Assembly: GCA_964452565.1 (NCBI GenBank)
Contig: CAYVLY010000001.1
Coordinates: 224,351-288,350, forward strand
Origin: an uncultured Gammaproteobacteria bacterium
GTDB lineage: Bacteria > Patescibacteriota > Patescibacteriia > UBA9934
Direction of reading: 5' to 3'
Length of the DNA stretch: 64,000 nt
The position numbers and the translations under genes are program-made. Below, piece by piece: positions 2,054 to 45,924 of the stretch. Below the pieces are notes generated by a model. That model saw only the letters and a program-made list of their open reading frames with translations, made no database searches and was not told the DNA's origin. The first letter of the stretch is position 1. Each line of letters opens with the position of its first letter.

Positions 2054-2159
2054 CTCCCCCTTACCAAGGGGGAGATGGAGGGGGTTTTGCCAGCGATCTT
2101 GATTCGATCGAATTCGATCAAACGGCAACCACCCCTAACCCCTCCTTGGGAAGGAGGGG
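2054..2159. repeat. composite GC-rich palindromic element: two inverted copies of the hairpin+GGGGGTTGCC unit flanking a GATCGAATTCGATC palindrome
   Basis: CTCCCCCTTACCAAGGGGGAG-ATGGAGGGGGTTTTGCC ... GCAACCACCCCTAA-CCCCTCCTTGGGAAGGAGGGG. The same unit recurs at 4870, 10419, 23710, 30051 and 54770/54828. Confidence 0.7.
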
Positions 2160-2167
2160 AACCGAAC

Positions 2168-4981: not shown

Positions 4982-7261
4982 TTACTTCCCTTCTTCACGC
5001 TCCTGAGCGAGCGCTAGGACTACGGTACGCATGGCTGTGTGCAGATCTCGCTGGCGCCGCGCCTCAGCAGTTTCCCTTTCGAGACGCTCGACTTCAGCAC
5101 GTGCCCTTGCGAGTTTCTCATCCTTGCGTGAGACCAACTGTTCGGCCTGCCTCGCTATGATTTGGATCTGCCTGCGGACTCCTTCCTCCATCAACGGTCC
5201 AAGCGTCTGCTCGAGCACAGTTGCAACCGGCCCTTCGACATCCCCTACCCGAATCCTAGGCTTAGAGACCTGGACCCGAGTTGCCGCATGTGATGCGCTC
5301 TCATCGATGAGCCTGGGCATTTCACTTTGCAGACATGCCCGTACAGCTGCTTCGATTGCCTCAGTCGGCACTTCAGGCTCAGGCACCTGGATCTGCTCAA
5401 GACGTGCGGCAAGTAGCTCATCAAGCAAGCCCCTTCCCTGCTCTCCGAGCAGAAATTCTTCAAGATGACCGCGAAGCGCCTCTCCTGACGGCTTCGCAAG
5501 TTCCAGCTCAGCCGGAGGATCTTCCGACGTAGCTACCATAGGCGAATTGCCAACAGGTGGTGCTACATCTTCGGCTGGAGCCACGGACGACTCAGGCGGA
5601 GGCGCCGGAGGATCACTGGAATCATCATCTGCTGGCGCCGGGGCTTCAGGCTCTTGCGCGGCCTGTGGGATTTCCCAGGCTTCCAGGTCGATAAGCTTCT
5701 CATGAACTACGCTAGCAGCCAGCTCGCTGATCGTACAACCGACACGTGATATGAGATCACGTATTACCTGTCGGTCATATGGCTTTTCTGGATTTCTATG
5801 CGGTACCAGGTTGACACCTAGCACGATACGCCAAACCGTACGGTGACGCGCAATCTGACCCAGCTTCTCCAGTAGCCCAACCTTCATCATAGCGTTGAGC
5901 GCCGCCGATGCGTTTTTCTGATTAGGCCATACATACCTGATCACTGATACTGCCAGCTCGGTTGGTAAACGCGCCGTGGATGGCCACCCGTGTTCCTTGA
6001 TCAGAATCAGAATCATGAGTTGCATCATTTCATATGCAGTTTTCGTGAACCCACTGACTTTGATAGAATCTTGCCCATCCGGATCCACTGGATCCTCGGA
6101 TGGCTCAGGCGGAGGCAGATCGTTGGCAGGCGGTGCTGCACCCTCAACGGGACTCGCGAGAGGCTCGAGCTGATCATCAGCCGGGTCCTCAGGCGTGGGC
6201 GGCGGAGGGTCACTAGGACCATCATCTTCCGGCGGAGGCGGATCGTCAGCTGGCTCTGAACCAGCAGGCGGCGCATCCTCGGGCGCATCCTCGGGTGCCG
6301 GCGGCGCAGGCTGATCGGCAGGCTCTTCAACCGGAGGCTCTTCTGGCTGCTTGCCAGGCGTCACCGGCTCTTCCCAATCCTCAACAAACAAAACGCCTCG
6401 ATCAACAGTCTGTTCTCCCATGGCACGTACCCGGTCGTCACTATAGACACCCAGGAATCCCCGAATGTCTGCCTCGCTGAACTCGACTTCTGGTCTGTAC
6501 TTCGGGATAAGACGTTTCCCGGGCAGGACACGCTGAATAGACAACCCACCCGAAGCACAACCAATTGGCTCAGTTAGGCTCTTTTGCTTCATGCCATCCA
6601 AGGGGACTCCTGGATTACCCGTCCTCGGATAGCAATAGCCCAAAATGTCATGCATGAACCTACTCGGGAGACGGGTAGCCGTAGGCCAATCGTATTCCGC
6701 AATCAGGATCGCAAGCATGAGTTGCATCATCTCGTAGGCCGACTTGACTGCCCCACTGACGACGATAGGCAGCTCTTTCTCCGCCTCAGGAAGATCCTCA
6801 GGCGGCTGATCAGCCGGTGGTTCCTCAGGTGGCGCTGGATCTTCAAGCGGAGGGTCACTAGGACCATCGTCTGCCGGTGGAGCCGGTGGTTCCTCAGGAT
6901 CATCAACTGGCGGCACCGGATCTGCTGGCGGCAAATACCGCGGGTCCTGCTTCAACTCATAACCATTGATGCGCGACTGCGCATCAGCGGCCTCGAGAAC
7001 CTGTACAATCACTGCTGGATCGATCGATCCGTCCAGATCAATGACCGTAACGTAGTTTGTGGCCCAATGTCTGAAACGCCTTACCAGCTGTCTTGGAATA
7101 TCATTACCACCTGCTTCTACCCATTTCAGGTATGCTCTCCATGTTCGCGGAGCGCCATCGTGTTTCAAAGCCTTCTCGAGCATGAAACCATAGCTCCAGC
7201 TGTTACGGCTCTGGATAGCGCGCTTGGTCTGCTCGGTCAGCTCGATTTCTGTCGTAGTCAT
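4982..7261 (-). CDS. hypothetical 760-aa protein with two homologous internal domains separated by Pro/Asp/Glu-rich low-complexity linkers, C-terminal coiled coil; GC-rich
   Basis: Long ORF at about 62% GC. The repeat is seen as VSGAVKSAYEMMQLMLAILIAEYDWPTATRLP versus VSGFTKTAYEMMQLMILILIKEHGWPSTARLP. The start at ATG 7261 (MTTTEIE) is chosen because a terminator hairpin at 7287-7320 separates it from the sigma gene. Confidence 0.55.
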   Translation of the reverse strand: MTTTEIELTEQTKRAIQSRNSWSYGFMLEKALKHDGAPRTWRAYLKWVEAGGNDIPRQLVRRFRHWATNYVTVIDLDGSIDPAVIVQVLEAADAQSRINGYELKQDPRYLPPADPVPPVDDPEEPPAPPADDGPSDPPLEDPAPPEEPPADQPPEDLPEAEKELPIVVSGAVKSAYEMMQLMLAILIAEYDWPTATRLPSRFMHDILGYCYPRTGNPGVPLDGMKQKSLTEPIGCASGGLSIQRVLPGKRLIPKYRPEVEFSEADIRGFLGVYSDDRVRAMGEQTVDRGVLFVEDWEEPVTPGKQPEEPPVEEPADQPAPPAPEDAPEDAPPAGSEPADDPPPPEDDGPSDPPPPTPEDPADDQLEPLASPVEGAAPPANDLPPPEPSEDPVDPDGQDSIKVSGFTKTAYEMMQLMILILIKEHGWPSTARLPTELAVSVIRYVWPNQKNASAALNAMMKVGLLEKLGQIARHRTVWRIVLGVNLVPHRNPEKPYDRQVIRDLISRVGCTISELAASVVHEKLIDLEAWEIPQAAQEPEAPAPADDDSSDPPAPPPESSVAPAEDVAPPVGNSPMVATSEDPPAELELAKPSGEALRGHLEEFLLGEQGRGLLDELLAARLEQIQVPEPEVPTEAIEAAVRACLQSEMPRLIDESASHAATRVQVSKPRIRVGDVEGPVATVLEQTLGPLMEEGVRRQIQIIARQAEQLVSRKDEKLARARAEVERLERETAEARRQRDLHTAMRTVVLALAQEREEGK

Positions 7262-7286
7262 CTCTCGCTCCGTTCGTTTTGGAAGT

Positions 7287-7320
7287 AAAAACGCTCTGCT
7301 TTCGCAGTGCGTTTTTTTAC
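7287..7320. terminator. intrinsic terminator hairpin (AAAAACGCTCTGC-TTTC-GCAGTGCGTTTTTTT) downstream of the ECF sigma gene on the minus strand
   Basis: Inverted repeat flanked by A/T runs on both sides. Confidence 0.5.
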
Positions 7321-7342
7321 CATTTTTATTACATTTCGTCAA

Positions 7343-8218
7343 TCAAGACTCTAATTCTGCTAGCCTCTTTTTTGCAGCAGCTAACTCTTCCTCTGCCTGC
7401 TTTAATTCCTTATCATTGAGCTCTATCTGGTCATCCAGTGCTGATATTAATTCCCCCAAGAAAGCCAGATACGCATCATCCCCCCTCAATTCAGCCTCTT
7501 GCTGCTCAAGCTCCTGTTCTGCCACCTCTGGTTCTTCCACTTCCTCAACTTCAGGCTCTTTGATCGATTCTTCGGCAACTGATGACTCTGGTTTTATAAG
7601 TCCAGCCTCCAAGGCCTCGGGTTGCAATAATCTCTTAAGCCTTTCTCTAGCATAGTACAAACGAGACATAACCGTACCTTCTGGAATATCCATTATCTCT
7701 GCAATTTCTTTATAGGCACGACCCTGGACTTCGCGCAATATAATAACTTGCCTTTGCTGTGGTGATAATTGACTCATTGCCCATTGAATCCTCTCTCCCA
7801 ACTCCTTTCCATGTACCTGATCGAAAGGCTGGTCAGGTCTTGTGTGTAAATCCCCTTCAATCTCAGTATCAATACGTTCATCAAACTCGGATGCTTGCCT
7901 TTTTTGCAGCCTACGAATCTCATCTATCGTTGCATTTATTGCGATTCTGTAAATCCAGGTTGAGAATGAAGCATCTTTTCGAAATCCACCAATATTTTTA
8001 TAAGCCTTTAGCATTACGTCCTGAGTAAGATCCTCTGCCTTTGCCCTATCTTTAATCATTCCAACAATATGAGCATAAATACGCCCACGATAAAGCTTTT
8101 GAAGCTCTTCCCAGGCCTTATGCTTCTCGTGTTCACTGCCTGATTCTTGAAGGATCGCAATTAGCTCCTTCTCTTGCGGATCCATCTCTCTTGGCTCTGT
8201 TTTTTCTCCCTTAGTCAT
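7343..8218 (-). CDS. ECF-type RNA polymerase sigma factor with about 100-aa acidic coiled-coil C-terminal extension
   Basis: Sigma-70 region 2 (DLTQDVMLKAY ... FSTWIYRIAINATIDEIR) and region 4 (YKEIAEIMDIPEGTVMSRLYYARERLK). Paralogous to the GC-rich sigma at 29314-29961. Confidence 0.8.
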   Translation of the reverse strand: MTKGEKTEPREMDPQEKELIAILQESGSEHEKHKAWEELQKLYRGRIYAHIVGMIKDRAKAEDLTQDVMLKAYKNIGGFRKDASFSTWIYRIAINATIDEIRRLQKRQASEFDERIDTEIEGDLHTRPDQPFDQVHGKELGERIQWAMSQLSPQQRQVIILREVQGRAYKEIAEIMDIPEGTVMSRLYYARERLKRLLQPEALEAGLIKPESSVAEESIKEPEVEEVEEPEVAEQELEQQEAELRGDDAYLAFLGELISALDDQIELNDKELKQAEEELAAAKKRLAELES

Positions 8219-9757: not shown

Positions 9758-10609
9758 TTAATTTATACTTAATAACTGCTTAATAATCTCAGGCACGGTT
9801 TGTCGAACTGCCCTAACAAATCGTTTTGATCGAATCGTTTCGACAATAACGTACGCTGGAAACACAATACTAGCTTTTAGAATCCTACCAATCCTGCGTG
9901 GTTCTATCAATACACGCCAAACCCATTCAAGGCCTGCTTTACGCATCCATTTTGGGGCCCTCTTGTGCCTTCCAGAAATCATATCAAGCGCTCCGCCAAT
10001 ACCGATCATTATCTTTACGCTTGGAAGCTCATCCTTAAACTTCTGCATGAAGAACAATTGCTTTTTATGACCAAGCGCGATAGCGATGATATCGGGTTTG
10101 ATTTTCGTGATTTGATCAATAATACCCCCATCAATCGAGATCTCACCATCCTCGATCTTAACTACGCCTGGATCAATGAAATCAATGTGAACTTTTGAGG
10201 GCAACTTATTAATTGCCTCCTTTGCCACTTTCTTATCACCTCCAAACAATAAAACCCTCTTCCCTTCTCTCCCACATAATTCGATCAGCCTCTGAAGCGT
10301 ATCAACTCCTGTATGGCGGTTGCTTAACTTTCGATCAGTTAGAGCTGAAGTTGCAAATCGAAGCGCAACGCCATCAGGAAGGTTTAGGTTGGATTCTTGA
10401 AGCGCTGATCGAAATACGCCTCCCCCTTTCCCAAGGGGGGATACGGGGGGGTTGCCTGCATTCTTATCTCGAATCGCGTCAACTAACATTTCAGGATTTG
10501 GTGTTGCTATACATTGGGTCTGACCCCCACGCAGAAAAGAAACAAGCCGAGCTTCAAGTTCAGCCTTAGTTAAATCATCAATTCGAATATCAAAAAGCTC
10601 ATGCCTCAT
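9758..10609 (-). CDS. WecG/TagA/CpsF-family glycosyltransferase (N-acetylmannosaminyltransferase-like)
   Basis: C-terminal family signature GGALDMISGRHKRAPKWMRKAGLEWVWRVLIEPRR. Carries an in-frame copy of the palindromic element (encoding PLGKGGGV). Confidence 0.75.
   Translation of the reverse strand: MRHELFDIRIDDLTKAELEARLVSFLRGGQTQCIATPNPEMLVDAIRDKNAGNPPVSPLGKGGGVFRSALQESNLNLPDGVALRFATSALTDRKLSNRHTGVDTLQRLIELCGREGKRVLLFGGDKKVAKEAINKLPSKVHIDFIDPGVVKIEDGEISIDGGIIDQITKIKPDIIAIALGHKKQLFFMQKFKDELPSVKIMIGIGGALDMISGRHKRAPKWMRKAGLEWVWRVLIEPRRIGRILKASIVFPAYVIVETIRSKRFVRAVRQTVPEIIKQLLSIN
10419..10456. repeat. GC-rich palindromic element unit inserted in-frame inside the WecG/TagA-like CDS
   Basis: CCTCCCCCTTTCCCAAGGGGGGATACGGGGGGGTTGCC. 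The ORF reads through it. Confidence 0.7.
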
Positions 10610-10610: not shown

Positions 10611-11021
10611 TTAGCGTCGCCAGAATGCGATAAGTGCGATTACTCCTCCGAGCAGATCCATTACAAAATCCATCATAGTATCTGCAATGCTTGGCTGATG
10701 CTTGAGCTCAATAGCCTTTGGAAAGATCTCATCAAGTAGAAACTCGTGCAGTTCCCATAGGATTCCAATTAGGGATACAAAACCAAGAACTATTCCTGGA
10801 ATCAACCACCAACTCAGGTGCTTTTGAAACCAACCCTTGAACTTCACATCATCTACACCCTCATTCCAAATCGCCAACCCGAGTGCACCCATGGCAAATC
10901 CCCCACCAATGTGCATTGGTATGTCATACCAATCAAGAATGTCGTAAAGCCCAAATAAGAGCCCCACAAAGTGAAAGACTAATACAATGGCAATAACCAA
11001 AAAAGCTTTTTTTAGTGTCAT
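10611..11021 (-). CDS. hypothetical small integral membrane protein
   Basis: 136-aa ORF with 3-4 hydrophobic helices, AT-rich codon usage like the backbone. Confidence 0.45.
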   Translation of the reverse strand: MTLKKAFLVIAIVLVFHFVGLLFGLYDILDWYDIPMHIGGGFAMGALGLAIWNEGVDDVKFKGWFQKHLSWWLIPGIVLGFVSLIGILWELHEFLLDEIFPKAIELKHQPSIADTMMDFVMDLLGGVIALIAFWRR

Positions 11022-11084
11022 AACAACCCTATTCTACGCTAAAATTCGAGGACAATCAATCCAGCACCTGGCAGCTGAACTTAG

Positions 11085-11111
11085 TTAGTTGAACTAAATT
11101 AGTTCAACTAA
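11085..11111. promoter_or_regulatory. 27-bp near-perfect palindrome TTAGTTGAACTAA-A-TTAGTTCAACTAA upstream of clpB (candidate operator)
   Basis: Perfect 13-bp arms. The GTTGAAC/GTTCAAC core is shared with a second palindrome at 42991-43027. Confidence 0.45.
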
Positions 11112-11140
11112 ACTGTGGATAAAATCTATTAACTCCCGTA

Positions 11141-11183
11141 AGTTGACGAAACTTAATTAGCACTCTATACTTGGGAGTGCTAA
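11141..11183 (+). promoter_or_regulatory. sigma-70-like promoter (TTGACG-N17-TATACT) overlapped by a perfect CIRCE element TTAGCACTC-N9-GAGTGCTAA (HrcA operator) for clpB
   Basis: CIRCE consensus matched 18/18 at 11157-11183. The -10 hexamer lies inside the spacer. Confidence 0.75.
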
Positions 11184-11194
11184 TTATACCAATT

Positions 11195-13834
11195 ATGATG
11201 CCGAATAACTTTACCTCAAAATCCCAAGAAGCCATTCAAGTGGCGCAAATGTTAGCCAATGAAAACGGTCAGCAAGCTGTCGATCCGATTCACTTACTAG
11301 CAAGCTTGATAAACCAAGACGACGGCATTATTCCTGCTCTTTTGCAAAAGATGCAGGTAGATACAAGTCGCCTCGTCAATCAAGTTGATCAGATCCTACA
11401 GACCCTTCCAAAAAACTTTGGATTCAACCAAGGCGGTATGGGACAGGTTCTCCTCTCCCCTGCCCTAGCAAAAACTCTTCAAAATAGCGCCAAGCAAGCA
11501 AAGCAATTTGGCGATGACTTTATTTCTACTGAACATCTATTTTTGGCTTTAATGCAAAACAAGCAGGTTGCCCAATTTCTATCCACGCAAGGAATTGAAA
11601 TAAAGGCAACTCTTGAATCTCTAAAAGATGTTCGCGGAAATCAAAAAGTGGATTCCGCAGATCCAGAGGCAAAGTTTCAGGCACTTGAAAAATACAGTTT
11701 GAATCTCACAGAATACGCACGCCAAGGAAAGCTCGATCCTGTAATCGGGCGTGATGAGGAAATTCGTCGACTTATGCAAGTTCTGGTTCGACGAACTAAG
11801 AACAACCCCGTGCTTATCGGAGAGGCTGGAGTTGGTAAAACAGCGATTGCTGAAGGTCTTGCTCAACGCATCGTAGCTGGTGATGTCCCTGAAATGCTCA
11901 AAGACCGTGAGATAATCGCGCTTGACCTTGGAGCACTTGTTGCAGGAACAAAGTTCCGTGGTGAATTTGAGGAGCGTCTAAAGGCTGTTGTTAAAGAAAT
12001 CGAGCAATCTGATGGAAAGATGATTTTGTTTATCGATGAGCTTCACAATCTCGTTGGCGCTGGAAAGGGTGAAGAAAGTCCAATGGACGCAAGCAACATG
12101 CTTAAACCTGCGCTTGCTCGTGGTGAAATGCGCGTTATCGGCGCAACAACTTTAAAGGAATATCAAAAACATATTGAAAAAGACGCTGCACTTGAGCGTC
12201 GATTCCAACCCGTGATGGTTGAAGAGCCGTCTGTACCTGATACGATCGCAATTCTTCGAGGAATTAAAGAGAAGTACGAAATTCACCATGGAGTCCGCAT
12301 TAGCGATACTGCACTAGTTTCAGCCGCAGAACTTTCAAACCGCTACATCACAGATCGATTCTTGCCAGATAAAGCGATCGATCTTATGGATGAGTCTGCC
12401 GCTGCCCTTCGCATGCAGATCGACTCCATGCCTGAGGACCTTGATCGACTTAAGCGTGAGGAAATGCGTCTTGAGATTGAGAAGCAGTCACTTTTAAAGG
12501 AAAAAGATAAGCGCTCAAAGCAACGTTTGGAAGAAATTGAAAAATCAATTGGTGATCTTAAAGAGCAATCATCTGAGCTTGAACTTAGATGGAAGAACGA
12601 AAAATCAATAATTCAAAAAATCAGGGATCTTAAAGACGAAATCGATAAGCTTACTAATGAATCTGATATTGAAGAACGTAAGGGTGACCTTCAAAAAGTC
12701 GCAGAGATTCGATATAGCGTGATTCCTAAAAAGCGCAAGGATCTTGAAAAAGCTCAAACTGAACTGAAGAACTTCCAAGAAGAGCGTGGTTTGCTTAAAG
12801 AAGAAATCGGCCCAGAGGAGATCGCTTCTATTGTTTCACGATGGACTCATATTCCGATAAGTAAAATGCTTCAAGGTGAGATGGAAAAGCTTGCAACCAT
12901 GGAAGAAGATCTAAAGGCGCGCGTTGTAGGTCAGGACGAAGCTATCACTGCGGTGAGCAATGCGCTGCGACGCTCGCGTGCAGGCATATCAGAAGAAAAA
13001 CGTCCAATCGGATCATTTATATTTCTCGGGCCAACTGGAGTTGGTAAAACTGAACTTGCAAAGGTTTTGGCAGATTTCATGTTTGACGATGATGAGGCGC
13101 TTATCCGCGTGGACATGTCTGAGTATATGGAAAAGCACAGTGTCAGCAAAATGATTGGATCGCCTCCTGGATACATTGGACATGATGAGGCTGGTCAGCT
13201 TACTGAGAAAGTCCGCCGACGCCCCTACTCTGTGATTTTGTTCGACGAGATTGAAAAGGCGCATCCAGATGTCTTTAACATGCTTCTGCAAGTACTTGAT
13301 GATGGGCACCTGACAGATGCCAAGGGTCGACGGGTAAACTTTAAGAACACGATCATCATTATGACTTCAAACATTGGATCAGAGTTTATCCTGAACTCTG
13401 AGAAGGCTGGTGGGATTGGTTTTGATGATGAGACTGTGCGTGAACACAATGAATCAAATGGAGTTAAGGATCGAGTAATGGAAATGATGCGGGAACAGTT
13501 CAAGCCAGAGTTTTTGAATCGTGTTGATGAGATTATCTTCTTTCATGCACTTTCTGAAAATCACATCGCTGATATTGTTCAGCTTCAGGTCGATCTTGTT
13601 GCGCAGCGTTTGAGTGAACAAAAACACATAATCGTGAAGGTAACTGAACGTGCAAAGAAATATCTTGCTAAAGAAGGATATGATCCTCAGTATGGCGCAC
13701 GGCCGCTAAAACGAATAATTCAACATCAGATACTTGATCCGCTTGCCATGAAGATAGTCCAGAGTGAAATTCCGGAGGATAGCGCAGTAACAATCGATGT
13801 AATCCAAGGTGAAGTAAAAATCACAGTTCGATAA
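11195..13834 (+). CDS. clpB: ATP-dependent chaperone ClpB (two AAA+ modules plus middle coiled coil)
   Basis: Two Walker A motifs ([16 protein letters not shown]), a long coiled-coil M-domain, about 880 aa. Start is set at the ATG pair at 11195 (the ORF track starts at an upstream TTG). Confidence 0.9.
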
Positions 13835-13880: not shown

Positions 13881-14436
13881 CTTGACACATTTTCACCCAA
13901 ATGCTTTAATATCTTCACGTCCATTTTGGCTAAGAGGAGTCCCAGCGAGTGCCGCGTCACCAGGAGGTACGCGCCGCGCGTCGGAAAGCTGCAATCCTGC
14001 AGTAGTCGACACTGGCCTTTGAAGCCAGCAGCAACCAAAGCTCAAGGGATCGAGATAGCGACCGAGCCTCTTCTCAGCCAGGCTGCGGGGTAAAAGCAAA
14101 CAAGCTGATACCACCACAAACCCGGAGAGTCCTGGTTCCCAGGACGCAGACTACGGAGGACGGTGAGTCCCAACATGCGCGGTCTGACCGGTTCCTCGTC
14201 ACGTTCACCCCCATGGGTCCCTGTTCGTGGAGAAGTCGTGTGCGGTGAGGAAATTCGCATCTTCACCACCCCGCAGCCATCCTTTTCTCGTAAATCCTTC
14301 GTGGCATCTTCCCTGCCATCGCCAGCCTCCTCGCCTGAGGTCGACGCCACGTGGGTACAGAGCCACCTTTGCCTCGCACTGGTGGCTCTCTACTTTTTGG
14401 CGCTAAACAGCTAGCGTCTATTTTTTATAAAAAGAT

Positions 14437-14457
14437 ACCAACGTTTAACGTTGGTAG
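14437..14457 (-). terminator. 21-bp perfect palindrome TACCAACGTTTAACGTTGGTA followed on the minus strand by a U-run; identical copy at 62118-62138
   Basis: Identical sequence plus similar flanks (ATAAAAA) at two loci, each downstream of a minus-strand gene. Confidence 0.5.
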
Positions 14458-14682
14458 TGCAGGTACCACATCTTATTGAAATCCGCAACTGTGGATAACA
14501 CGTCCAGAACCCGGTGCTGGACTTGATTTATAAAAGCGAAACTCCTTTATTTATAAGATATTCTTTCCAAGGTTGAACCTTGAGTATTAGAGCTAATAAA
14601 ATAAGGATAAGCGAAACCCCCGCAGCGCGTAGCGTGCAGGGGTCACGGAAGAAGGGTTGAAGAAGGGGCGCGGGGCGTGGGA

Positions 14683-15189
14683 CTAGTCGTTGTCGATGTC
14701 GAGCCCGTTGTTGCGGACCCAGAAGTTGTCAACGTCTTCGTCTTCCCACTGGATCACCAGGACATCGCCCTGGGGCACCTCGTCGGAGAACATGATCTGG
14801 GGCGGCCCGTTGTCGAAGGCTACCTCACCCATGCACTCAGCGTCGAAGTGGCTGGGAACGCCGTAGAACAGGATATCCGCGTAGACGCCGTCCGTGTAGA
14901 CATCGCCCACCTGGCTGAACTCAGTCTCCCCATCATCGAAGATGCAGGTGACTTCCATCGAGCTCACGGTATAGCCCTGGTCGGCGAACTTCGAGTCCCA
15001 CATGATCCACACGGCATCGTCGGTCGTGCCGTAGTAGCTGCCACCGTTGCCGAGGCCGACATCGATGTCGCAGTCCCAGACGCCGTCCGCATTGTAGCCA
15101 CATGAGGCACCGCCAAACTCGAAGCACCCGGGGGTAGCGACGGTGGACAGGGCGAGGACAGCGGCGAGCAGGGTGTTGATCTTGGTCAT
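14683..15189 (-). CDS. hypothetical secreted Cys-containing protein (signal peptide, possible lipobox ATPGC); GC-rich
   Basis: RBS GGAGGAG upstream, N-terminal hydrophobic signal, acidic mature domain. The overlapping plus-strand ORF is judged spurious. Confidence 0.5.
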   Translation of the reverse strand: MTKINTLLAAVLALSTVATPGCFEFGGASCGYNADGVWDCDIDVGLGNGGSYYGTTDDAVWIMWDSKFADQGYTVSSMEVTCIFDDGETEFSQVGDVYTDGVYADILFYGVPSHFDAECMGEVAFDNGPPQIMFSDEVPQGDVLVIQWEDEDVDNFWVRNNGLDIDND

Positions 15190-15270
15190 TTTCTCTCATC
15201 TCCTCCTCGCCGCAGCGAGGCTGTTGGGGTCACTGGTGCGTCATGGTCGAAAGGTTCGACTCACATACGC

Positions 15271-15340
15271 TCCTATAGCATAGGAAAAAGTGGAGTGAGA
15301 GATATTTAAGGTGCGCTCTTTCCTATGCTTTAGGAGTGCT
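15271..15340. promoter_or_regulatory. two related palindromic boxes (TCCTATAGCATAGGA and TCCTATGCTTTAGGAG) about 45 bp apart upstream of the secreted-protein gene
   Basis: Box 1 is a perfect palindrome (CCTAT-AGC-ATAGG). Box 2 is the inverted near-copy. Confidence 0.4.
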
Positions 15341-15430
15341 ATGAGCTACTCTCAGATTTCGATGCTTGATCGAAGTCTGGGTGTAGCCCACCCGACGAGA
15401 TGCCGGGATGGGCGAATGAGAAAGGTGAGG

Positions 15431-15697
15431 CTAGCGGCGCCACTTGCGGAAGAGCCGGGTGCGCTTGAGTGCCTCGCGGATTCCGAGCTCGCGGCTGTTC
15501 TCAAAGTTCCTGACGGCCATGACCTGACCTTGCCGGATCTTTTCGAGTCGGCCGAGCTCGTTGCGGATGGCCGCGTTCAGCTCGTCGAGCTGGCTGCGAA
15601 GCCCTCTTGAGAGCTGCATGGGGCTGCCGTGACCAGGCAGGCTCACCCTTGCAGTCGTAGTGTAGAGAGCGACGAGCGTTGTTTCGATGCCTTTCAT
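15431..15697 (-). CDS. hypothetical 88-aa protein (GC-rich island)
   Basis: GGAG RBS 6 nt upstream of the ATG. No recognisable motif. Confidence 0.3.
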   Translation of the reverse strand: MKGIETTLVALYTTTARVSLPGHGSPMQLSRGLRSQLDELNAAIRNELGRLEKIRQGQVMAVRNFENSRELGIREALKRTRLFRKWRR

Positions 15698-15842
15698 GTC
15701 ATCTCCAAACTACCCTTGAGGCAGCTGGTGTTAGGGAGCGTTGTGCTTCCCACCAAAGGTCTCGATACTATTCAAGCTCTTTGGTGGGCCCACTCGATCG
15801 AGGATCGAGTGGGACGAGGAAGGAGGGGGAAGGAAGAAGGTG

Positions 15843-16007
15843 CTACATCAGGGCCTTGACCGCGGCGTCGAGCACGTGGCTGTGCTTGGTGCTGCCGACG
15901 AGGGCGAGCCACGCGATGGGGGCGATCATCAGTCCAGCAACGGCCAGGCCGCTCTGGATGGTGTGAGCCTTCATGCGGACGTGGAAGAGGACGGTATCGA
16001 GGGTCAT
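15843..16007 (-). CDS. hypothetical 54-aa single-pass membrane peptide (not in the ORF track, below its 60-aa cutoff)
   Basis: AAGGAG RBS 7 nt upstream of the ATG at 16007. The ORF encodes MTLDTVLFHVRMKAHTIQSGLAVAGLMIAPIAWLALVGSTKHSHVLDAAVKALM. Confidence 0.3.
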   Translation of the reverse strand: MTLDTVLFHVRMKAHTIQSGLAVAGLMIAPIAWLALVGSTKHSHVLDAAVKALM

Positions 16008-16460
16008 GGTGTTCTCCTTGGAGGGTCGAGTGTTTCAATCTGGCTAGATTACTATCTATTCAGGTTGAAGCACTCGACTACCTATAAAGAAAACCGCCTG
16101 AGTTTCTCGAAAATTGAGAGAACCAGGCGGTTTCCTACCACTCAGTAGATCCTTCGACTCGGCCTTTGGCCTCGCTCAGGATGACGAGTGATTTGCTTCT
16201 TTACCCAGAAGCTTGGGCTCTCTCTAGTTGTAATGTTCTGATCAAATCTGCCTTGCGACTCCTTGATCTTTACATGTAGTACTATAGCACAAAATGACAA
16301 GTTTGTCAAGAGCTGAGGCTGGATTTTGGGCTAAAATTGGCATATATTCTATAGGTAGTAGTAAGTAGGTAGTAGGCAGTAGATGGGCAGCCAATACATA
16401 CCCGGACTTATCTACTTATTACTTCCTACTACCCACTACCTGCGCTATAATAAGGCCACT

Positions 16461-21759: not shown

Positions 21760-21863
21760 AGCTGGTACAATAGTTGACAGATTAGCATTTCCATGCTAAT
21801 CTTCTTTGTTCTTTGAAACACAGGTGGGTAATTCTATTCAACCGCGTACGGAAGGAGAACTCC

Positions 21864-22322
21864 ATGAAACGCACCCTCACCCTGATCGTAATCCTGGCCA
21901 TTCTGGCCGCCCTGACCGGCTGTCCTAAGCAGACGCCCCCGGTGGTCTACAGCGTAGTGCCGGAAGTGACCAACGTCGAGCAAGCCGAGATCTCGCACCA
22001 CGACTACAATTGGGTGATCTTCGGTGCCGATAGTGTCACTATCGATCTGATCACCGAGAGCAGCTTCATGCCTCACACGGGCCAGCTTCACGAAGGCGTA
22101 CAATTCAATGACCAGTACTGGGTTATCCCCACGAACCTGAGCTCTGATCTGATCTACGAGATCCGCTGGAACGGATACGAACTAACCGCCAAGGATCATG
22201 ACGGCAAGTGGCTGTGTGTGGACCTCTGGGGTTGGTCCACAGACGGCGAGACCAAGCTCGCTGGTCCCAACGTCTACGGCCTGGTCTACGTCATCACCGA
22301 CGACATCGACAAATGCCAGTAG
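21864..22322 (+). CDS. hypothetical lipoprotein (GC-rich); signal peptide MKRTLTLIVILAILAALTGC
   Basis: Strong RBS GGAAGGAGAACTCC-ATG. Lipobox LTGC. The N-terminus is near-identical to the lipoprotein at 49096. Confidence 0.55.
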   Translation: MKRTLTLIVILAILAALTGCPKQTPPVVYSVVPEVTNVEQAEISHHDYNWVIFGADSVTIDLITESSFMPHTGQLHEGVQFNDQYWVIPTNLSSDLIYEIRWNGYELTAKDHDGKWLCVDLWGWSTDGETKLAGPNVYGLVYVITDDIDKCQ

Positions 22323-22420: not shown

Positions 22421-24054
22421 TATTTCATGTTTGAAGTCGCAATTGGCACGGGCTGCTTTATGATTTTTTTCTTTTGAACTTCCTCAATGCCACTACGCCT
22501 CTTTTTTACAAACCCCTCCCAATCTATAAACGGCAAAACAAACAGCATCAAACTCAATCCAATCGGGTGATTTAAATATGGTGAGAACGTATGTGTCACA
22601 AATATCCCAACAATTCCAGCTACCATCCCCATTACAAGCCATTTATAGCCCCTGGATTGCGCTGTAAACCACCCAACACGCAAAAGTGACATAATATACC
22701 AAGCAAAGCCCGCGAGTCCCAGCAACCCCATTTTCAACCAAATATCATGCCAACCCCATTCAAATCTATAAGTAGTGTAAGCACCCCCATCTTCCTGCTC
22801 TAAAACTCGAGGATCTTCTGATTCATAAGTGACAGTTTCACCAAATCCTGAGCCTAGAATTGGGCTTGCGACTATCTCCTCCATCATTGGCTCAAGCAGA
22901 TTCCATCGACTAACAACCGCCTCAGAGCGACCAGTCTCTGACGATGTTTCAAAAAAGGCAGCATCGCTTAGATCTGGCCTTTCAGGAATGGGTATTTGAA
23001 CAATCATGATGATCACCAAAAATCCAACAATCGAAATGATTACACTGTTAAATGTCCTGGTTACAATCCAGACCTTTGCTCTGCCAAAAAACCAAGCGCT
23101 CACAAAAAGCATTAAACCACCAGCTATAATCCCCAAAATAAAACTTCTTGAAAGACTCAAGAACATTGTCATTATTGAAAATCCAAACACCAATCCAATA
23201 AACCACGGCATCTTACTCTTTCGCCACAAGTACATCATCGCTGAATAGGCTACAAGCACTCCAACCATTACCACTGTTTGTGCAGGCATGAAGATGCGAT
23301 ACCAATAATCACCTTCTATTGCAAGTCCGTACTTCAAAAGTGAGCTATTAAGTAAACTTGGCTCAGCACCAACAACCTGCAAAGTCACCTCAGCCAATCT
23401 TGAATCACGAACAAAAGTATAAAGGTTATGCAAATTGTCACCGTCAATGTGTGTGAATGCATAGGCTAATGCGATCGTAAAGCCAACAATCCATAAAACC
23501 GATGCGAAGAGCACTTGAAGGAGTTGCCTTTTCTGAGTCTGACCCCACTTGATCGTCAAGATTGGCAATAGGTATCCGATAACTACATAGCCATTAATAT
23601 CATCAAACGCGGCTAATAGATCATTTTGGATGAATCCAATGAATGTTCCGAGAGCTATAGCAGTGATCAATACAAGCCAGGGGACATCACGCATCCAGTT
23701 AAATCGAAAGGCAACCCCCTCTACCTCCCCCTTCGGAAGGGGGAGAACCTTATACAGCCACACGGCCATTACGATCACGAAAATCAGCATTCTGATCGAC
23801 AAGGAGAATCCAAACAACTCCACGTCAAGTAAATGGCCGTGGCCACCAACAAATATCTCAGCGAATGCTATCAACAATCCATTGATCGGCGACCGCCACG
23901 TTAATATCAAGGTGAAAACCCCAAATACGATGAACAAAGGCAATTCAAATCCAGTATCGCGCACAAAAAACGCTAAGGCATGCATAATACCGATCAAACT
24001 CAGTGTGATCCACATTGTATCTCCGATGAACTGCTTTTTGATATTCATAGTCAT
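22420..24054 (-). CDS. O-antigen ligase/polymerase-family (Wzy_C-like) polytopic membrane protein
   Basis: More than 10 predicted TM helices. Lies in the polysaccharide cluster and contains an in-frame palindromic element (encoding LPKGEVEG). Confidence 0.55.
   Translation of the reverse strand: MTMNIKKQFIGDTMWITLSLIGIMHALAFFVRDTGFELPLFIVFGVFTLILTWRSPINGLLIAFAEIFVGGHGHLLDVELFGFSLSIRMLIFVIVMAVWLYKVLPLPKGEVEGVAFRFNWMRDVPWLVLITAIALGTFIGFIQNDLLAAFDDINGYVVIGYLLPILTIKWGQTQKRQLLQVLFASVLWIVGFTIALAYAFTHIDGDNLHNLYTFVRDSRLAEVTLQVVGAEPSLLNSSLLKYGLAIEGDYWYRIFMPAQTVVMVGVLVAYSAMMYLWRKSKMPWFIGLVFGFSIMTMFLSLSRSFILGIIAGGLMLFVSAWFFGRAKVWIVTRTFNSVIISIVGFLVIIMIVQIPIPERPDLSDAAFFETSSETGRSEAVVSRWNLLEPMMEEIVASPILGSGFGETVTYESEDPRVLEQEDGGAYTTYRFEWGWHDIWLKMGLLGLAGFAWYIMSLLRVGWFTAQSRGYKWLVMGMVAGIVGIFVTHTFSPYLNHPIGLSLMLFVLPFIDWEGFVKKRRSGIEEVQKKKIIKQPVPIATSNMK
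23710..23745. repeat. GC-rich palindromic element unit (reverse orientation) in-frame within the O-antigen-ligase-like CDS
   Basis: GGCAACCCCCTCTACCTCCCCCTTCGGAAGGGGGAG. Confidence 0.7.
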
Positions 24055-28585: not shown

Positions 28586-29155
28586 CTACCTGACTTCGTC
28601 CTCACGCTCGATTACAACCTTGGCTCTCTTACGAGCTCGGAATATGCGGTTCATCACCGTACCCAGGGGAAGTCCAAGCATTTCTGCAATCTCACGACAT
28701 TTGAGTTCATCATAAGAATACATACATAGAACCTGCCAATATATCGGGTTGTGATGGCTCATTTCTCGCTTCACCTGATGTAGGAGCTGCTGACTACGAG
28801 TTGCCCTTTCCTGGTCTGGGCTCTCATCCTCGAGCTGCCCAACAGCTTCAGCGCTAGTGCATTTATCCCAACGCACATTACGTCGATAGATATCAATGGC
28901 AATCCTTTGAGCAATAGTGCGAGCCCAGGGGCCGAACGGGCGTCTGGGATCATAGCTGCCAATACCCATCAGTATCTTGAGACATGTGACCTGCGCTACA
29001 TCTTGTGCGGATGGTGGATCACCAAGAATCTTCATGGCAATCTTGAACGCAAACGGCCAGGTGATGGTCAATACACGCTCCATGGCCTCTTTATCACCAG
29101 CCTTCGCCCTTGCGGCCAACTCCCTACTGACGAGCATTCCATTCCCCACGCGCAC
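28586..29155 (-). CDS. ECF-type RNA polymerase sigma factor (GC-rich island)
   Basis: Region 2 (DVAQVTCLKIL ... FGPWARTIAQRIAIDIYRR) and region 4 (YDELKCREIAEMLGLPLGTVMNRIFRARKR). Confidence 0.8.
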   Translation of the reverse strand: MRVGNGMLVSRELAARAKAGDKEAMERVLTITWPFAFKIAMKILGDPPSAQDVAQVTCLKILMGIGSYDPRRPFGPWARTIAQRIAIDIYRRNVRWDKCTSAEAVGQLEDESPDQERATRSQQLLHQVKREMSHHNPIYWQVLCMYSYDELKCREIAEMLGLPLGTVMNRIFRARKRAKVVIEREDEVR

Positions 29156-29313
29156 ACCGCCTCTCTCAGACTTGGTTAATGTTTTCTTTGAAGGGGTTGA
29201 AAAGACCGTATATTAAAAAACCGCCTATGTCAACAATAGAATTTGAAGCCAAAAAGCAAAGAACCGCGCCTCAAGGGACGCGGAACGTAAAATGACGCGA
29301 GAGGATCAGGACG

Positions 29314-29961
29314 CTACCTCAGATCCCTCAGGATCTGCTGCAGCCGCTTGCGGGCGTAGAAGAGCCGACTCATGACATCGCCCTCAGGGATATCCATGGC
29401 CTGGGCGATCTCCTTGTACGAGAACCCTTCGATCTCGCGCAGCAGGACCACTTGACGCTGCTGAGGACTGAGCTGCTGCAGGGCCTGTGCAATTCTGCGC
29501 ATGAGCTCAGCTCGTTGCTGATCTCGCCCCGGACTGCGGTGCAGATGATCAGGGTCCAGGAGTGAATCATCAACTCCGTCACTACCGATACGCTCATCGA
29601 ATTCGCTGGTCTTGACCCGGCTGTGCTTGCGGATGTAGTCGATAGTGACGTTCGAGGCGATCCGGTAAAGCCAGGTGTTGAATGAAGCCTCGAGCCTGAA
29701 TCCGCTGATGTTGCAATAGGCCTTTGCGAAGGTCTCCTGGACCAGATCACGAGCATCCTCGCGGTTGCGAATCATGCCATAGATGTGAGCGTAGATCCGA
29801 CCCTGGAAGCGATCAACCAGAACACGAAATAGCTCTAGCTCACCGCCTTGAATCCGCTCGACCAGCTGTCTGTCACCCAGTTCATCATATTGCTGCATCA
29901 GCTGCCTGCGCAGGCCTGCACACTCTCCTAGCACCTCGTCAGTGGATTCTTCGTCTTTCAT
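29314..29961 (-). CDS. ECF-type RNA polymerase sigma factor, GC-rich paralog of the sigma at 7343-8218
   Basis: Aligns along its length with the 7343 sigma (GRIYAHIxGMI ... SFxTWxYRIA ... SEFDERI ... LSPQQRQVxxLREIxG ... YKEIAxxMDIPEGxVMSRLxYARxRL). Start at ATG 29961 has a GAGGAGAG RBS. Confidence 0.8.
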   Translation of the reverse strand: MKDEESTDEVLGECAGLRRQLMQQYDELGDRQLVERIQGGELELFRVLVDRFQGRIYAHIYGMIRNREDARDLVQETFAKAYCNISGFRLEASFNTWLYRIASNVTIDYIRKHSRVKTSEFDERIGSDGVDDSLLDPDHLHRSPGRDQQRAELMRRIAQALQQLSPQQRQVVLLREIEGFSYKEIAQAMDIPEGDVMSRLFYARKRLQQILRDLR

Positions 29962-30050
29962 GTGCTCTCCTCTCGAGCCTCGGGTTGTACAATGGGACAC
30001 CCCAGATTAGCACAGAAAGGTGGGATTGTCAATGATACGATCAGATCCGA

Positions 30051-30088
30051 GACAACCCCCTCTATCTCCCCCTTCGAAAGGGGGAGCC
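30051..30088. repeat. GC-rich palindromic element unit (reverse orientation) upstream of the sigma gene
   Basis: GACAACCCCCTCTATCTCCCCCTTCGAAAGGGGGAGCC. Confidence 0.7.
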
Positions 30089-41005: not shown

Positions 41006-41067
41006 GCTTCCTCCTTATTTCTTATGACAAAATTATATCATAAACACGATCATCAATCGAAACAAAA

Positions 41068-42531: not shown

Positions 42532-42990
42532 CTAATCTGTGTTCTGGGTTCTGCCTTCTGAGTTCTGTAACACATACATCGCTACCCCACTTGCAACCGA
42601 TACGTTAAGCGACCGTTTCTTGTCCATTGGAATCTCAACAATACCATCGAGCTTGTCGCGCGTTTCTTTATCAATTCCTTCGACCTCATTGCCAAGCACG
42701 AGCGCTATCTTTAAACTCTCGATCGAGTCGATGCTCTGAGCCTCTTTACCGGTCTCAAGTCCAAGAATTTGATATCTATCTGATCTGAGCTTTTCGAAAA
42801 TCTCATCAATACTTCCCTGCTCCCAGTCGACAATCTCCTCAGCGCCAAGTGCAACCTTGGCGATCTCCTTACGCGGAGGTGTTGCAGTTATCCCTGTGAG
42901 ATAGAGCTTTTCAACTCCAAAAGCAGCGCAATTCCTAAAAATCGCACCAACATTATGCAAACTTCGAATATTATGAGCAATAACTATCAT
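42532..42990 (-). CDS. SpoU-family (TrmH/TrmL-like) RNA 2-prime-O-methyltransferase
   Basis: SPOUT motifs LVLGNEVEGI and SLNVSVASGVAMY. Confidence 0.75.
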   Translation of the reverse strand: MIVIAHNIRSLHNVGAIFRNCAAFGVEKLYLTGITATPPRKEIAKVALGAEEIVDWEQGSIDEIFEKLRSDRYQILGLETGKEAQSIDSIESLKIALVLGNEVEGIDKETRDKLDGIVEIPMDKKRSLNVSVASGVAMYVLQNSEGRTQNTD

Positions 42991-43027
42991 AGTTGAACCA
43001 TTTCAGTTGAACTAAAATGGTTCAACT
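42991..43027. promoter_or_regulatory. palindrome AGTTGAACCATTT-N11-AAATGGTTCAACT (spacer itself contains AGTTGAAC)
   Basis: Perfect 13-bp arms. The core is shared with the clpB-upstream palindrome. Confidence 0.4.
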
Positions 43028-43129
43028 AACTTCTGGTGCGATTATCGCAGGAATCTTGATTATTCTCAACTATTACGCTACTCTCCGTGCAGTTAGTCCG
43101 CCCCATCCCCAACCTCTCATGGAGCATTC

Positions 43130-45890: not shown

Positions 45891-45924
45891 GATTGCCACA
45901 CTTCAGTGGAACGGAGAAATCTCA

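What the first reader, a model, noticed from the sequence alone, without database searches (positions are those of the whole stretch)
11085..11183. clpB carries a textbook CIRCE/HrcA operator plus a second upstream palindrome whose core recurs elsewhere
TTAGCACTC-N9-GAGTGCTAA (11157-11183) is a perfect CIRCE overlapping the -10 of a TTGACG-N17-TATACT promoter. About 50 bp upstream is a 27-bp palindrome TTAGTTGAACTAA-A-TTAGTTCAACTAA. A related palindrome AGTTGAACCATTT-N11-AAATGGTTCAACT lies at 42991-43027, between the SpoU methyltransferase gene and a GC-rich gene. The shared GTTGAAC core suggests a second dimeric regulator with a small regulon.
Basis: partly seen in the sequence, partly recalled or inferred. 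Interest (0 to 1): 0.5.

Follow-up and report, generated by a model that had tools for sequence, protein, structure and literature searches.

The report
Real CIRCE operator plus intergenic repeat copy
The clpB chaperone gene of this ultra-small (Candidatus Uhrbacteria) bacterium carries a genuine, lineage-conserved heat-shock operator (CIRCE), but the second palindrome upstream looks like one copy of a small hairpin-forming intergenic repeat that comes and goes between close relatives, not the operator of a second regulator.

Summary

**CIRCE (supported).** The perfect CIRCE at 11157-11183 encloses the -10 hexamer of the clpB promoter. About 40 of 80 Patescibacteria clpB loci carry a CIRCE in the same place: the arms are conserved and the spacer is free. 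It occurs nowhere else in about 600 kb of those loci. No hrcA gene lies in the window, and the rest of the genome could not be read.

**Second palindrome (reinterpreted).** It is the core of a roughly 55-nt composite element:
- a DnaA-box-like head, TTATCCACAG;
- two or three 13-nt palindromic boxes (nnRGT-N3-ACYnn) in 14-17-nt register.

Copies lie at 11069-11126 (-), 42988-43045 (-) and 47970-48024 (+).

In relatives:
- The same element sits in the SpoU leader in sister lineages, with different box sequences. It is absent from more distant relatives, whose SpoU has a leaderless-like start.
- The clpB/DUF2238 gap is compact and element-free in L147 and is differently filled in L001, L144, L145 and L146.

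The neighbouring genes (clpB, DUF2238, TrmH-like SpoU, era) share no functional theme.

**Verdict.** It is most likely a lineage-restricted REP/MITE-like repeat. A regulon operator is not excluded. Interest is modest.

The parts
11143..11171 (+). clpB sigma-70-type promoter: TTGACG (11143-11148), 17-nt spacer, TATACT (11166-11171)
   Evidence: Promoter scan, 10/12 match. The same -35 and -10 are conserved in L001, L002, L144, L146 and L147.
11157..11183 (.). Perfect CIRCE (TTAGCACTC-N9-GAGTGCTAA). The -10 hexamer lies in its spacer.
   Evidence: Single match in the window, 0 expected. A CIRCE is present upstream of clpB in about 40 of 80 related loci. Arms carry 1.3-2.0 bits per position and the spacer 0.2-0.9 bits. 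No CIRCE occurs elsewhere in those loci.
11195..13834 (+). clpB (879 aa)
   Evidence: Pfam: Clp_N, AAA, AAA_lid_9, AAA_2, ClpB_D2-small. 93% identical to the ClpB of a Candidatus Uhrbacteria MAG.
11069..11126 (-). Repeat copy W1. On the minus strand it reads TTATCCACAG-TT-TAGTTGAACTAA-TT-TAGTTCAACTAA-CT-AAGTTCAGCT.
   Evidence: nhmmer match to the element profile, alignment A3. It lies within a 75-nt stretch that is missing from the compact gap of L147.
11085..11111 (.). The 27-bp palindrome: two 13-nt boxes at 11085 and 11099. A degenerate third box, GCAGCTGAACTTA, is at 11071-11083.
   Evidence: Predicted hairpin -14.5 kcal/mol, z = -3.9.
11113..11122 (-). DnaA-box-like head TTATCCACAG (perfect TTATCCACA 9-mer)
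   Evidence: The same head precedes the boxes in relatives.
11031..11059 (-). Promoter of the divergent DUF2238 membrane-protein gene (10611-11021): TTGATT-17-TAGAAT
   Evidence: Promoter scan. Family PF09997 as precomputed for identical protein P0121.
42988..43045 (-). Repeat copy W2, in the SpoU leader. Three boxes (42989, 43003, 43017) form a 39-bp palindrome (42990-43028) that ends at the SpoU ATG.
   Evidence: RNA hairpin -23.4 kcal/mol, z = -7.8. It lies between the conserved SpoU promoter and the ATG.
43041..43069 (-). SpoU promoter TTGAGA-17-(TG)GATAAT, conserved in the relatives L134, L137, L139/L140 and recognisably in L141
47970..48024 (+). Repeat copy W3, upstream of era: TTATCCATAG + GAGGTCCAACCTC + GAGGTTGGACCTC (31-bp perfect palindrome 47984-48014)
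   Evidence: Hairpin -27.1 kcal/mol, z = -6.1. The downstream gene has the GTPase + KH_2 architecture typical of Era.
14569..14581 (.). Single box of the same type, AAGGTTGAACCTT, about 70 nt from another TTATCCACAG (14489-14498)

Best explanation
Two unrelated things sit side by side.

(1) clpB is transcribed from a sigma-70-type promoter whose -10 hexamer lies inside the spacer of a perfect CIRCE. A bound HrcA dimer would cover the -10 and the transcription start and so repress clpB until heat stress releases it. This arrangement is inherited across the lineage. The sequence and its conservation are shown; HrcA binding is inferred.

(2) The upstream 27-bp palindrome is the body of one copy of a roughly 55-nt, lineage-restricted, hairpin-forming intergenic repeat. 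The head is the DnaA-box-like TTATCCACAG. The body is two or three 13-nt palindromic boxes, nnRGT-N3-ACYnn, in 14-17-nt register. The copy was inserted into an ancestrally compact divergent promoter region. The GTTGAAC core shared with the SpoU locus reflects common descent of repeat copies, not a regulon.

By inference only, the element spreads or turns over by a hairpin-dependent, REP/MITE-like mechanism. Its box array lies roughly 65-105 bp, and its DnaA-box-like head about 56-65 bp, upstream of the inferred clpB start, so it is probably irrelevant to the conserved heat-shock control. The head could still bind DnaA.
For: CIRCE:
- Unique perfect match, 0 expected.
- It overlaps the promoter's -10.
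- About 40 of 80 Patescibacteria clpB loci have a CIRCE within 400 bp upstream (39 of the 40 within 240 bp), with conserved arms and a variable spacer. In 18 of those 40 the spacer again starts with TAnnnT.
- No CIRCE occurs anywhere else in about 600 kb of those loci.

Repeat:
- W1 and W2 share 46 nt at 76% identity, with the same box order and the same orientation. Over the roughly 55-nt element they are 43/51 identical.
- A third copy, W3, and a single box also exist. There are 9 perfect 5-3-5 boxes against 1.9 in shuffles.
- All copies fold into strong triloop hairpins.
- Sister lineages have the same head-plus-boxes architecture in the SpoU leader but with GGGAGTCCAACTCCC-type boxes and 15- or 17-nt spacing.
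- More distant relatives lack it and have -10 + about 7 nt + ATG.
- In the clpB/DUF2238 gap, L147 is compact and element-free, and the window carries a 75-nt extra stretch. L001 has two copies in the opposite orientation plus a different palindrome. L144 and L146 hold inserted ORFs instead, and L145 and L002 have no element.
- L139 and L140 differ by an insertion of about 150 bp flanked by a duplicated 37-nt element.
- The window holds other intergenic repeat families too.
- The neighbouring genes have no common function.
Against: - Only three copies could be counted, because only 64 kb of this genome was available. A true repeat family should be much larger genome-wide.
- No transposase or RAYT was found in the window.
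- Two loci, the clpB gap and the SpoU leader, are occupied in both the window genome and its sister genome (L001/L134). This could instead mean conserved regulatory sites that co-evolve with a binding protein.
- The AGT-N3-ACT core of the boxes is conserved while the flanks co-vary symmetrically, which a dimeric protein could also explain.
- The excess similarity between copies within the window (84%) over positional counterparts in relatives (69-80%) is small for such short sequences.
- hrcA itself was not seen.
Confidence: 0.55

Rival explanations
1. The boxes are operators of a second, lineage-specific dimeric DNA-binding regulator that acts with HrcA on clpB and on a small regulon (SpoU or the 205-aa gene, era). 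This would be analogous to the HspR/HAIR plus HrcA/CIRCE dual control of epsilonproteobacteria.
For: - The geometry GTTGAAC-N7-GTTCAAC matches the 7-N7-7 layout of HAIR. In C. jejuni, arrays of HspR sites lie upstream of core promoters that carry a CIRCE at the transcription start (PMC7464140).
- The AGT-N3-ACT core is conserved across lineages, with symmetric flanks.
- The same two loci are occupied in two sister genomes.
- The spacing from the last box to the -35 is similar for clpB (31 bp) and for the 205-aa gene (36 bp). The second -35 is my own reading of the sequence.
Against: - Identity to HAIR is only 8/14, and there is no HAIR-like site in the window (best match 3 mismatches, inside the clpB coding region) or upstream of clpB in the relatives at up to 2 mismatches.
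- Pfam scans of nearly all window ORFs found no MerR/HspR, CtsR or other candidate regulator. tblastn with remembered HspR, HrcA and CtsR sequences also found nothing.
- The clpB-upstream copy is not conserved in L002, L144, L145, L146 or L147.
- Spacing varies from 14 to 17 nt, and half of the half-site positions differ between genomes whose ClpB is 93% identical.
- Position relative to promoters is inconsistent.
- The target genes are functionally unrelated.
Confidence: 0.2
2. A DnaA-linked module. The TTATCCACAG head is a functional high-affinity DnaA box and the adjacent hairpin boxes assist it. The module would couple transcription of the flanking genes to DnaA, or titrate DnaA.
For: - There are three perfect TTATCCACA 9-mers in the window, and all three are followed by G (my expectation of about 0.5 by chance is a rough estimate).
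- The head sits 7 nt after the -10 of the SpoU promoter in L134, L137 and L140, a roadblock position.
- TGTCCACAG or TTTCCACAGG abuts the clpB -35 in L001 and L144.
- Other TATCCACA sites in the window also sit next to palindromes, at 14489 and 62139.
- TGTTATCCACAG recurs in E. coli DnaA and oriC papers (titles and counts only; the papers were not read).
Against: - The head is degenerate or lost in W2 (CACCAGAAG), while the boxes are kept.
- Single isolated boxes are weak evidence of DnaA regulation.
- Nothing about DnaA explains the phased palindromic boxes.
- No binding data exist.
Confidence: 0.12
3. An RNA-level element. The palindromes act as 5'-UTR hairpins that control mRNA stability or translation. 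The clearest case is SpoU, where the 18-bp stem ends at the AUG.
For: - W2 lies between the conserved SpoU promoter and the ATG.
- Strong predicted hairpins in the SpoU leaders of the window and L137 (-23.4 and -33.5 kcal/mol, z = -7.8 and -5.4); those of L134 and L140 fold no better than shuffles (z = -1.8 and -0.2).
- The stems differ in sequence between lineages but a hairpin is kept in each.
Against: - W1 and W3 lie upstream of the promoters of all their neighbouring genes, so no transcript is expected to contain them.
- The distance from hairpin to AUG is not conserved: 0 nt in the window, about 25 nt in L134 and L140.
- There is no Rfam match, even at E <= 1.
Confidence: 0.1

Closest known systems
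CIRCE / HrcA heat-shock operator (consensus TTAGCACTC-N9-GAGTGCTAA, first studied in Bacillus subtilis; PMC7464140)
   Same: A perfect 9-N9-9 consensus that overlaps the core promoter of a chaperone gene. The arms are conserved and the spacer is free across orthologous promoters.
   Different: The target is clpB rather than groESL or dnaK. The -10 hexamer is built into the CIRCE spacer, a layout repeated in many Patescibacteria. hrcA was not found in the window. No paper in the searched library links HrcA with Patescibacteria in substance: one search returned none, another returned a single incidental co-mention in an oral-microbiota paper.
HAIR / HspR operator arrays co-occurring with CIRCE (Campylobacter jejuni, Helicobacter pylori, Streptomyces; PMC7464140)
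   Same: A 7-N7-7 inverted repeat, with several adjacent sites upstream of a core promoter that carries a CIRCE. clpB is a classical HspR target in those organisms.
   Different: Arms are GTTGAAC/GTTCAAC against CTTGAGT/ACTCAAG, 8/14 identical. The site is not conserved upstream of clpB in relatives. No MerR-type gene was seen. The same element also sits at SpoU and era.
REP/BIME- and MITE-like intergenic palindromic repeats of bacteria (from general knowledge)
   Same: Short, hairpin-forming, strictly intergenic, with several copies per genome. Presence, orientation and copy number vary between close relatives, and the sequence is genome-specific.
   Different: It has a DnaA-box-like head and phased 13-nt sub-palindromes. 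Only three copies are visible in 64 kb. No RAYT or transposase and no target-site duplication were identified.
DnaA box (TTATCCACA)
   Same: A perfect 9-mer at 11114-11122, with the extended form TGTTATCCACAGG in relatives.
   Different: It is isolated rather than part of an oriC-like cluster, it is fused to palindromic boxes, and it is dispensable in copy W2.

Membership tests
CIRCE/HrcA operator | 9-N9-9 inverted repeat matching TTAGCACTC-N9-GAGTGCTAA | tested here: met
   27/27 defined positions match at 11157-11183. It is unique in the window, with 0 expected.
CIRCE/HrcA operator | Located at the promoter or 5' end of a chaperone or protease gene | tested here: met
   It overlaps the -10 of TTGACG-17-TATACT, 11 nt before the clpB ATG.
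CIRCE/HrcA operator | Conserved at orthologous promoters, with constrained arms and a free spacer | tested here: met
   About 40 of 80 clpB loci. Arms 1.3-2.0 bits, spacer 0.2-0.9 bits. None elsewhere in about 600 kb.
CIRCE/HrcA operator | hrcA gene present in the genome | not testable with these tools
   No HrcA domain in any window ORF scanned, and no tblastn hit with a remembered B. subtilis HrcA in the window or loci. The rest of the 709-kb contig could not be fetched.
CIRCE/HrcA operator | HrcA binding and heat-inducible derepression | not testable with these tools
   Needs experiments.
HAIR/HspR operator | Match to CTTGAGT-N7-ACTCAAG | tested here: not met
   The geometry is the same but only 8/14 bases match. 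At up to 3 mismatches the window has one match, inside clpB coding sequence; at up to 2 mismatches the relatives have none in clpB upstream regions.
HAIR/HspR operator | MerR-family hspR gene | tested here: inconclusive
   None in the window by Pfam or by tblastn. The rest of the genome was not seen.
HAIR/HspR operator | Conserved upstream of heat-shock genes in related genomes | tested here: not met
   Absent upstream of clpB in L002-L080 and in L144-L147.
CtsR operator | Tandem heptads GGTCAAA-N3-GGTCAAA | tested here: not met
   No site near clpB. The only match within 2 mismatches is about 760 nt from the far end of the window (minus-strand scan), nowhere near clpB. The period here is 14 nt, not 10.
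REP/MITE-like intergenic repeat | Several related copies, all intergenic | tested here: met
   W1, W2 and W3 plus a single box at 14569.
REP/MITE-like intergenic repeat | Stable hairpin or palindrome | tested here: met
   -14.5 to -27.1 kcal/mol, z from -3.9 to -7.8.
REP/MITE-like intergenic repeat | Presence, orientation or copy number varies at orthologous sites in close relatives | tested here: met
   clpB gap: window 1 copy, L001 2 copies in the opposite orientation, L147/L145/L002 none, L144/L146 ORF inserts. SpoU leader: present in the subclade, absent in L141-143. L139 and L140 are polymorphic.
REP/MITE-like intergenic repeat | High copy number genome-wide and/or a cognate transposase (RAYT, TnpA) | not testable with these tools
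   Only 64 kb was available. No transposase domain in the window. The profile finds no further copies in about 710 kb of other Patescibacteria loci.
DnaA box | TTATCCACA 9-mer | tested here: met
   Perfect at 11114-11122. There are three perfect copies in the window. Binding by DnaA was not tested.

The most novel reading that the evidence does not exclude
The DnaA-box-headed palindromic element is a previously undescribed, target-selective mobile or regulatory module of a Uhrbacteria subclade. It inserts at promoter-proximal hot spots, including between the -10 and the start codon of an ancestrally leaderless-like gene. These are the same hot spots where variable GC-rich gene cassettes come and go. 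The element would either mark recombination sites for those cassettes or tie expression of the flanking genes to DnaA.
Probability: 0.15. Interest if true: 0.6.

Novelty: new member of a known kind. Interest (0 to 1): 0.3.

Why it matters
Gene regulation in the ultra-small, mostly uncultured Patescibacteria is almost unstudied.

The conserved CIRCE built around the clpB -10 shows that at least one classical heat-shock circuit, HrcA-type repression, is retained there. It also gives a concrete promoter and operator to test.

The reinterpretation of the second palindrome is a caution against inferring regulons from shared palindrome cores in genomes whose intergenic regions are full of small repeats.

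It also points to recurrent insertion hot spots next to promoters (the clpB/DUF2238 gap and the SpoU/methyltransferase gap). These may be of interest for how such reduced genomes acquire variable GC-rich genes.

Tried and rejected
- **Metagenome scan** and **viral scans** with box patterns. They returned only noise: 23S rRNA, tandem repeats and coding sequence. One Firmicutes-type ICE or prophage (L082/L084) has three AGTTSAAC boxes in 14-nt register next to a 78-aa Xre-like gene (my reading of its sequence). That gene has no homolog in the window, so I treat the match as coincidence.
- **HspR/HAIR and CtsR.** The sequence tests were not met. No homologs were found by Pfam or tblastn.
- **ECF-sigma promoter reading** (TGAAC as a -35). 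Three ECF sigma genes are in the window. However, the spacing from GAAC to the next GTT is 7 or 21 nt, not 16-18, so I rejected it on reading the sequence.
- **Known RNA families.** Rfam, both at gathering thresholds and at E <= 1, finds nothing at any copy in the window or in L001, L134, L137 or L140.
- **Origin of replication.** The DnaA boxes are isolated and there is no cluster.
- **More copies.** An nhmmer profile of the element finds only its own training copies in 711 kb of held sequence.
- **Literature.** No substantive paper links HrcA with Patescibacteria or CPR in the searched library; the few co-mentions found are incidental.
- **A minus-strand extended -10** (TGGTATAAT, 11190-11182) that would put CIRCE at +1 of a DUF2238-directed transcript. 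It is not conserved in L001 or L002, so it is probably chance.
- **Fetching the rest of this genome.** The exact-protein look-up returned only a 3.9-kb Logan contig identical to the window.

Full report
**Organism and setting.** The ORF after the site (ATG 11195 to 13834) is ClpB. Its closest relatives are Candidatus Uhrbacteria MAGs, 93% identical in L001 and 85% in L002, followed by other Patescibacteria. Upstream and divergent lie three genes:
- a 136-aa membrane protein (10611-11021, minus strand; DUF2238 by the precomputed Pfam of identical protein P0121);
- a WecG-type glycosyltransferase;
- GltX.

**Observation check.**
- The CIRCE at 11157-11183 is the only match in the window even with three mismatches allowed, against none in shuffles.
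- The promoter scan gives TTGACG-17-TATACT at 11143-11171, so the -10 hexamer lies inside the CIRCE spacer.
- The 27-bp palindrome (11085-11111) has perfect 13-nt arms.
- The second site is really a 39-bp palindrome, 42990-43028.
- GTTSAAC heptamers exactly 14 nt apart occur three times, against 0.003 expected.

**CIRCE.** I scanned the 80 clpB loci retrieved from one genome per species. About 40 have a CIRCE within a few hundred bases upstream of clpB.
- The arm positions carry 1.3-2.0 bits and the spacer 0.2-0.9 bits.
- Five loci carry the symmetric variant TTATCACTC...GAGTGATAA.
- In 18 of the 40 the spacer again begins with a TAnnnT -10-like hexamer.
- No other CIRCE occurs anywhere in those roughly 600 kb.
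- Alignments with the closest relatives show that the -35, the CIRCE and the -10 are the conserved block of this intergenic region.

This is the signature of a functional operator under selection. By established knowledge of CIRCE (consensus and role as quoted in PMC7464140), it is bound by an HrcA dimer, which here would occlude the -10 and the transcription start.

The missing piece is hrcA itself.
- Pfam scans of essentially all sizeable window ORFs found none.
- tblastn with a remembered B. subtilis HrcA found nothing in the held sequence.
- The rest of the genome could not be fetched. Identical proteins show it exists in NCBI as a 709,517-bp contig.
- No substantive paper in the searched library links HrcA with Patescibacteria; the only co-mentions are incidental.

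**Anatomy of the second palindrome.**
- Each 13-mer, TTAGTT[G/C]AACTAA, is itself a 6-1-6 palindrome.
- Both loci hold three such boxes in exact 14-nt register: 11071 (degenerate), 11085 and 11099; and 42989, 43003 and 43017.
- The two loci share 46 nt at 76% identity in the same orientation, with the same order of G/C centres.
- Immediately beside the clpB-locus boxes is a perfect DnaA-box 9-mer. On the minus strand the locus reads TTATCCACAG-TT-box-TT-box-CT-box.
- A third locus, upstream of era, has TTATCCATAG followed by GAGGTCCAACCTC and GAGGTTGGACCTC, forming a 31-bp perfect palindrome (47984-48014).
- Perfect 5-3-5 boxes of the form nnRGT-N3-ACYnn occur 9 times, against 1.9 in shuffles.

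**Relatives: the SpoU locus.** I fetched SpoU loci of close relatives through protein look-ups.
- The SpoU promoter, TTGAGAAwAATCAAGATTCCTGnnATAAT, is conserved in all the closer ones and in the window (43069-43041, minus strand).
- In L134 (the same genome as L001), L137 and L139/L140, the -10 is followed by TGTTATCCACAGGAAGCT. Then come two or three boxes of a different sequence type (GGGAGTCCAACTCCC, GGAAGTCCAACTC, GAGAGTTAAACTCCC) at 15- or 17-nt spacing, and then the ATG.
- The window has the same architecture with its own AT-rich boxes and a decayed head.
- In more distant relatives (L141-L143) there is no element at all: -10, about 7 nt, ATG. The element is therefore an insertion in a subclade.
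- L139 and L140, otherwise nearly identical, differ by an insertion of about 150 bp flanked by a duplicated 37-nt piece of the element.

**Relatives: the clpB/DUF2238 gap.** I fetched four more gaps.
- L147 has a compact gap with back-to-back promoters and no element. The window carries a 75-nt extra stretch there that contains the element.
- L001 has two head-plus-box copies in the opposite orientation. It also has a different palindrome, CTGTGGACAGAGGTTGAACCTCTGTCCACAG, and a terminator remnant.
- L144 and L146 carry inserted ORFs (GC-rich by eye in L144) with that terminator.
- L145 and L002 have no element upstream, though several relatives have hairpin-rich inserts in the clpB 5' UTR.
- None of the other 78 clpB loci has the motif. 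A profile of the element finds nothing beyond its training copies in 711 kb.

The clpB-upstream copy is therefore not a conserved part of clpB control.

**Structure.** Every window copy folds into a long triloop hairpin centred on a box: W2 at -23.4 kcal/mol (z = -7.8), W3 at -27.1 and W1 at -14.5. The leaders of relatives keep a hairpin of different sequence, though those of L134 and L140 fold no better than shuffles. There is no Rfam match, even at permissive thresholds.

**Interpretation.** I favour a lineage-restricted REP/MITE-like intergenic repeat over an operator of a second regulator, for these reasons:
- the copies have variable presence, orientation, copy number and spacing;
- the box sequence is genome-specific;
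- the position relative to promoters is inconsistent;
- the neighbouring genes are functionally unrelated;
- other repeat families are present in the same intergenic regions.

The regulon idea is not excluded.
- Two loci are occupied in both sister genomes.
- The AGT-N3-ACT core is conserved with symmetric flanks.
- The layout resembles HspR/HAIR arrays upstream of CIRCE promoters.
- Against this, the HAIR sequence test fails (8/14) and there are no HAIR sites upstream of clpB in the window or the relatives.
- No candidate regulator gene was found.

A DnaA-linked role for the head and an RNA-level role for the SpoU copy remain minor possibilities.

**Searches that led nowhere.** The metagenome and viral pattern scans returned only chance matches. 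The ICE-borne Xre-like lead has no homolog in the window.

**Verdict.**
- The CIRCE interpretation is supported, as a new member of a well-known kind in a phylum where it appears undocumented.
- The second-regulator interpretation is not supported, and a repeat element is the better reading (confidence about 0.55).
- Overall interest is modest (0.3).

Noticed in passing
window 4982-7342, 14042-16008, 21813-22322, 28586-30000, 43130-43747, 45862-47359, 49096-49440, 51842-52605, 56942-57478: GC-rich islands (0.51-0.66 GC against about 0.42 for the backbone). They hold small ORFs without Pfam matches, at least some preceded by Shine-Dalgarno-like sequences. The native genes I looked at have weak or no SD. 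This suggests acquired genes.
   Followed up: partly
window 7343-8218, 28586-29155, 29314-30000 (all minus strand): Three ECF-type sigma factor genes in 64 kb of a reduced genome. Two lie in a GC-rich island. One is followed by a 786-aa GC-rich repetitive ORF (4982-7342).
   Followed up: no
SpoU/methyltransferase gap (window 43050-43800; L134 2553-3776; L137 1732-2178; L141 973-1335; L143 1061-1381) and clpB/DUF2238 gap (L144 780-1376; L146 about 900-1290): The same two intergenic hot spots hold different small ORFs in different relatives and are empty in others (L142; window and L147). The SpoU-gap ORFs are measurably GC-richer (0.48-0.55). L001 keeps only a terminator remnant.
   Followed up: partly
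window 2054-2160, 10412-10457, 23709-23745, 30050-30086, 54768-54853; also L138 about 1880-1960: A REP-like GC-rich hairpin repeat family, AACCCCCTCTAyCTCCCCCTTCGGAAGGGGGAG, with at least seven copies. One copy lies inside the annotated 5' part of the WecG ORF, which suggests that gene starts further downstream.
   Followed up: no
window 14437-14457 and 62116-62136: The identical palindrome TACCAACGTTTAACGTTGGTA occurs at two loci. Each is followed by a T-run and sits near a TATCCACA motif. It may be a terminator or another repeat family.
   Followed up: no
window 41092-41127: A perfect 36-bp palindrome, TTTTCACTAACGACCCGA/TCGGGTCGTTAGTGAAAA, directly after a terminator-like hairpin (41065-41095) between DUF389 and CorA. 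L134 has two extra genes at this position.
   Followed up: no
window 31261-32064 (minus strand): RpoA is only 267 aa, and Pfam finds only the N-terminal and insert domains. There is no alpha C-terminal domain, which would bear on UP-element and class-I activation.
   Followed up: no
between the CIRCE and the clpB ATG in L001, L002, L144, L145, L146 (window 11184-11194 for comparison): The clpB 5' UTR is 11 nt in the window and L147. It carries unrelated inserts of about 80-150 nt in five close relatives, hairpin-rich at least in L145 and L146.
   Followed up: partly
L141 1490-1503, L142 1485-1503, L143 1485-1503: In more distant relatives SpoU has -10 + about 7 nt + ATG. This is a leaderless-like start that the element insertion disrupted in the subclade containing the window.
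   Followed up: partly
window 45852-45860 (minus strand) and L134 534-542: TCAATTGTCCACAG is conserved between the window and its sister genome, about 45 nt upstream of a TATACT -10. This is a possible conserved DnaA-type site without boxes.
   Followed up: no
L082 1342-1400 and L084 2535-2600: A Firmicutes-type ICE or prophage has three AGTTSAAC-like boxes in 14-nt register between a 47-aa ORF and a 78-aa Xre-like gene. This is probably an operator array unrelated to the window.
   Followed up: partly
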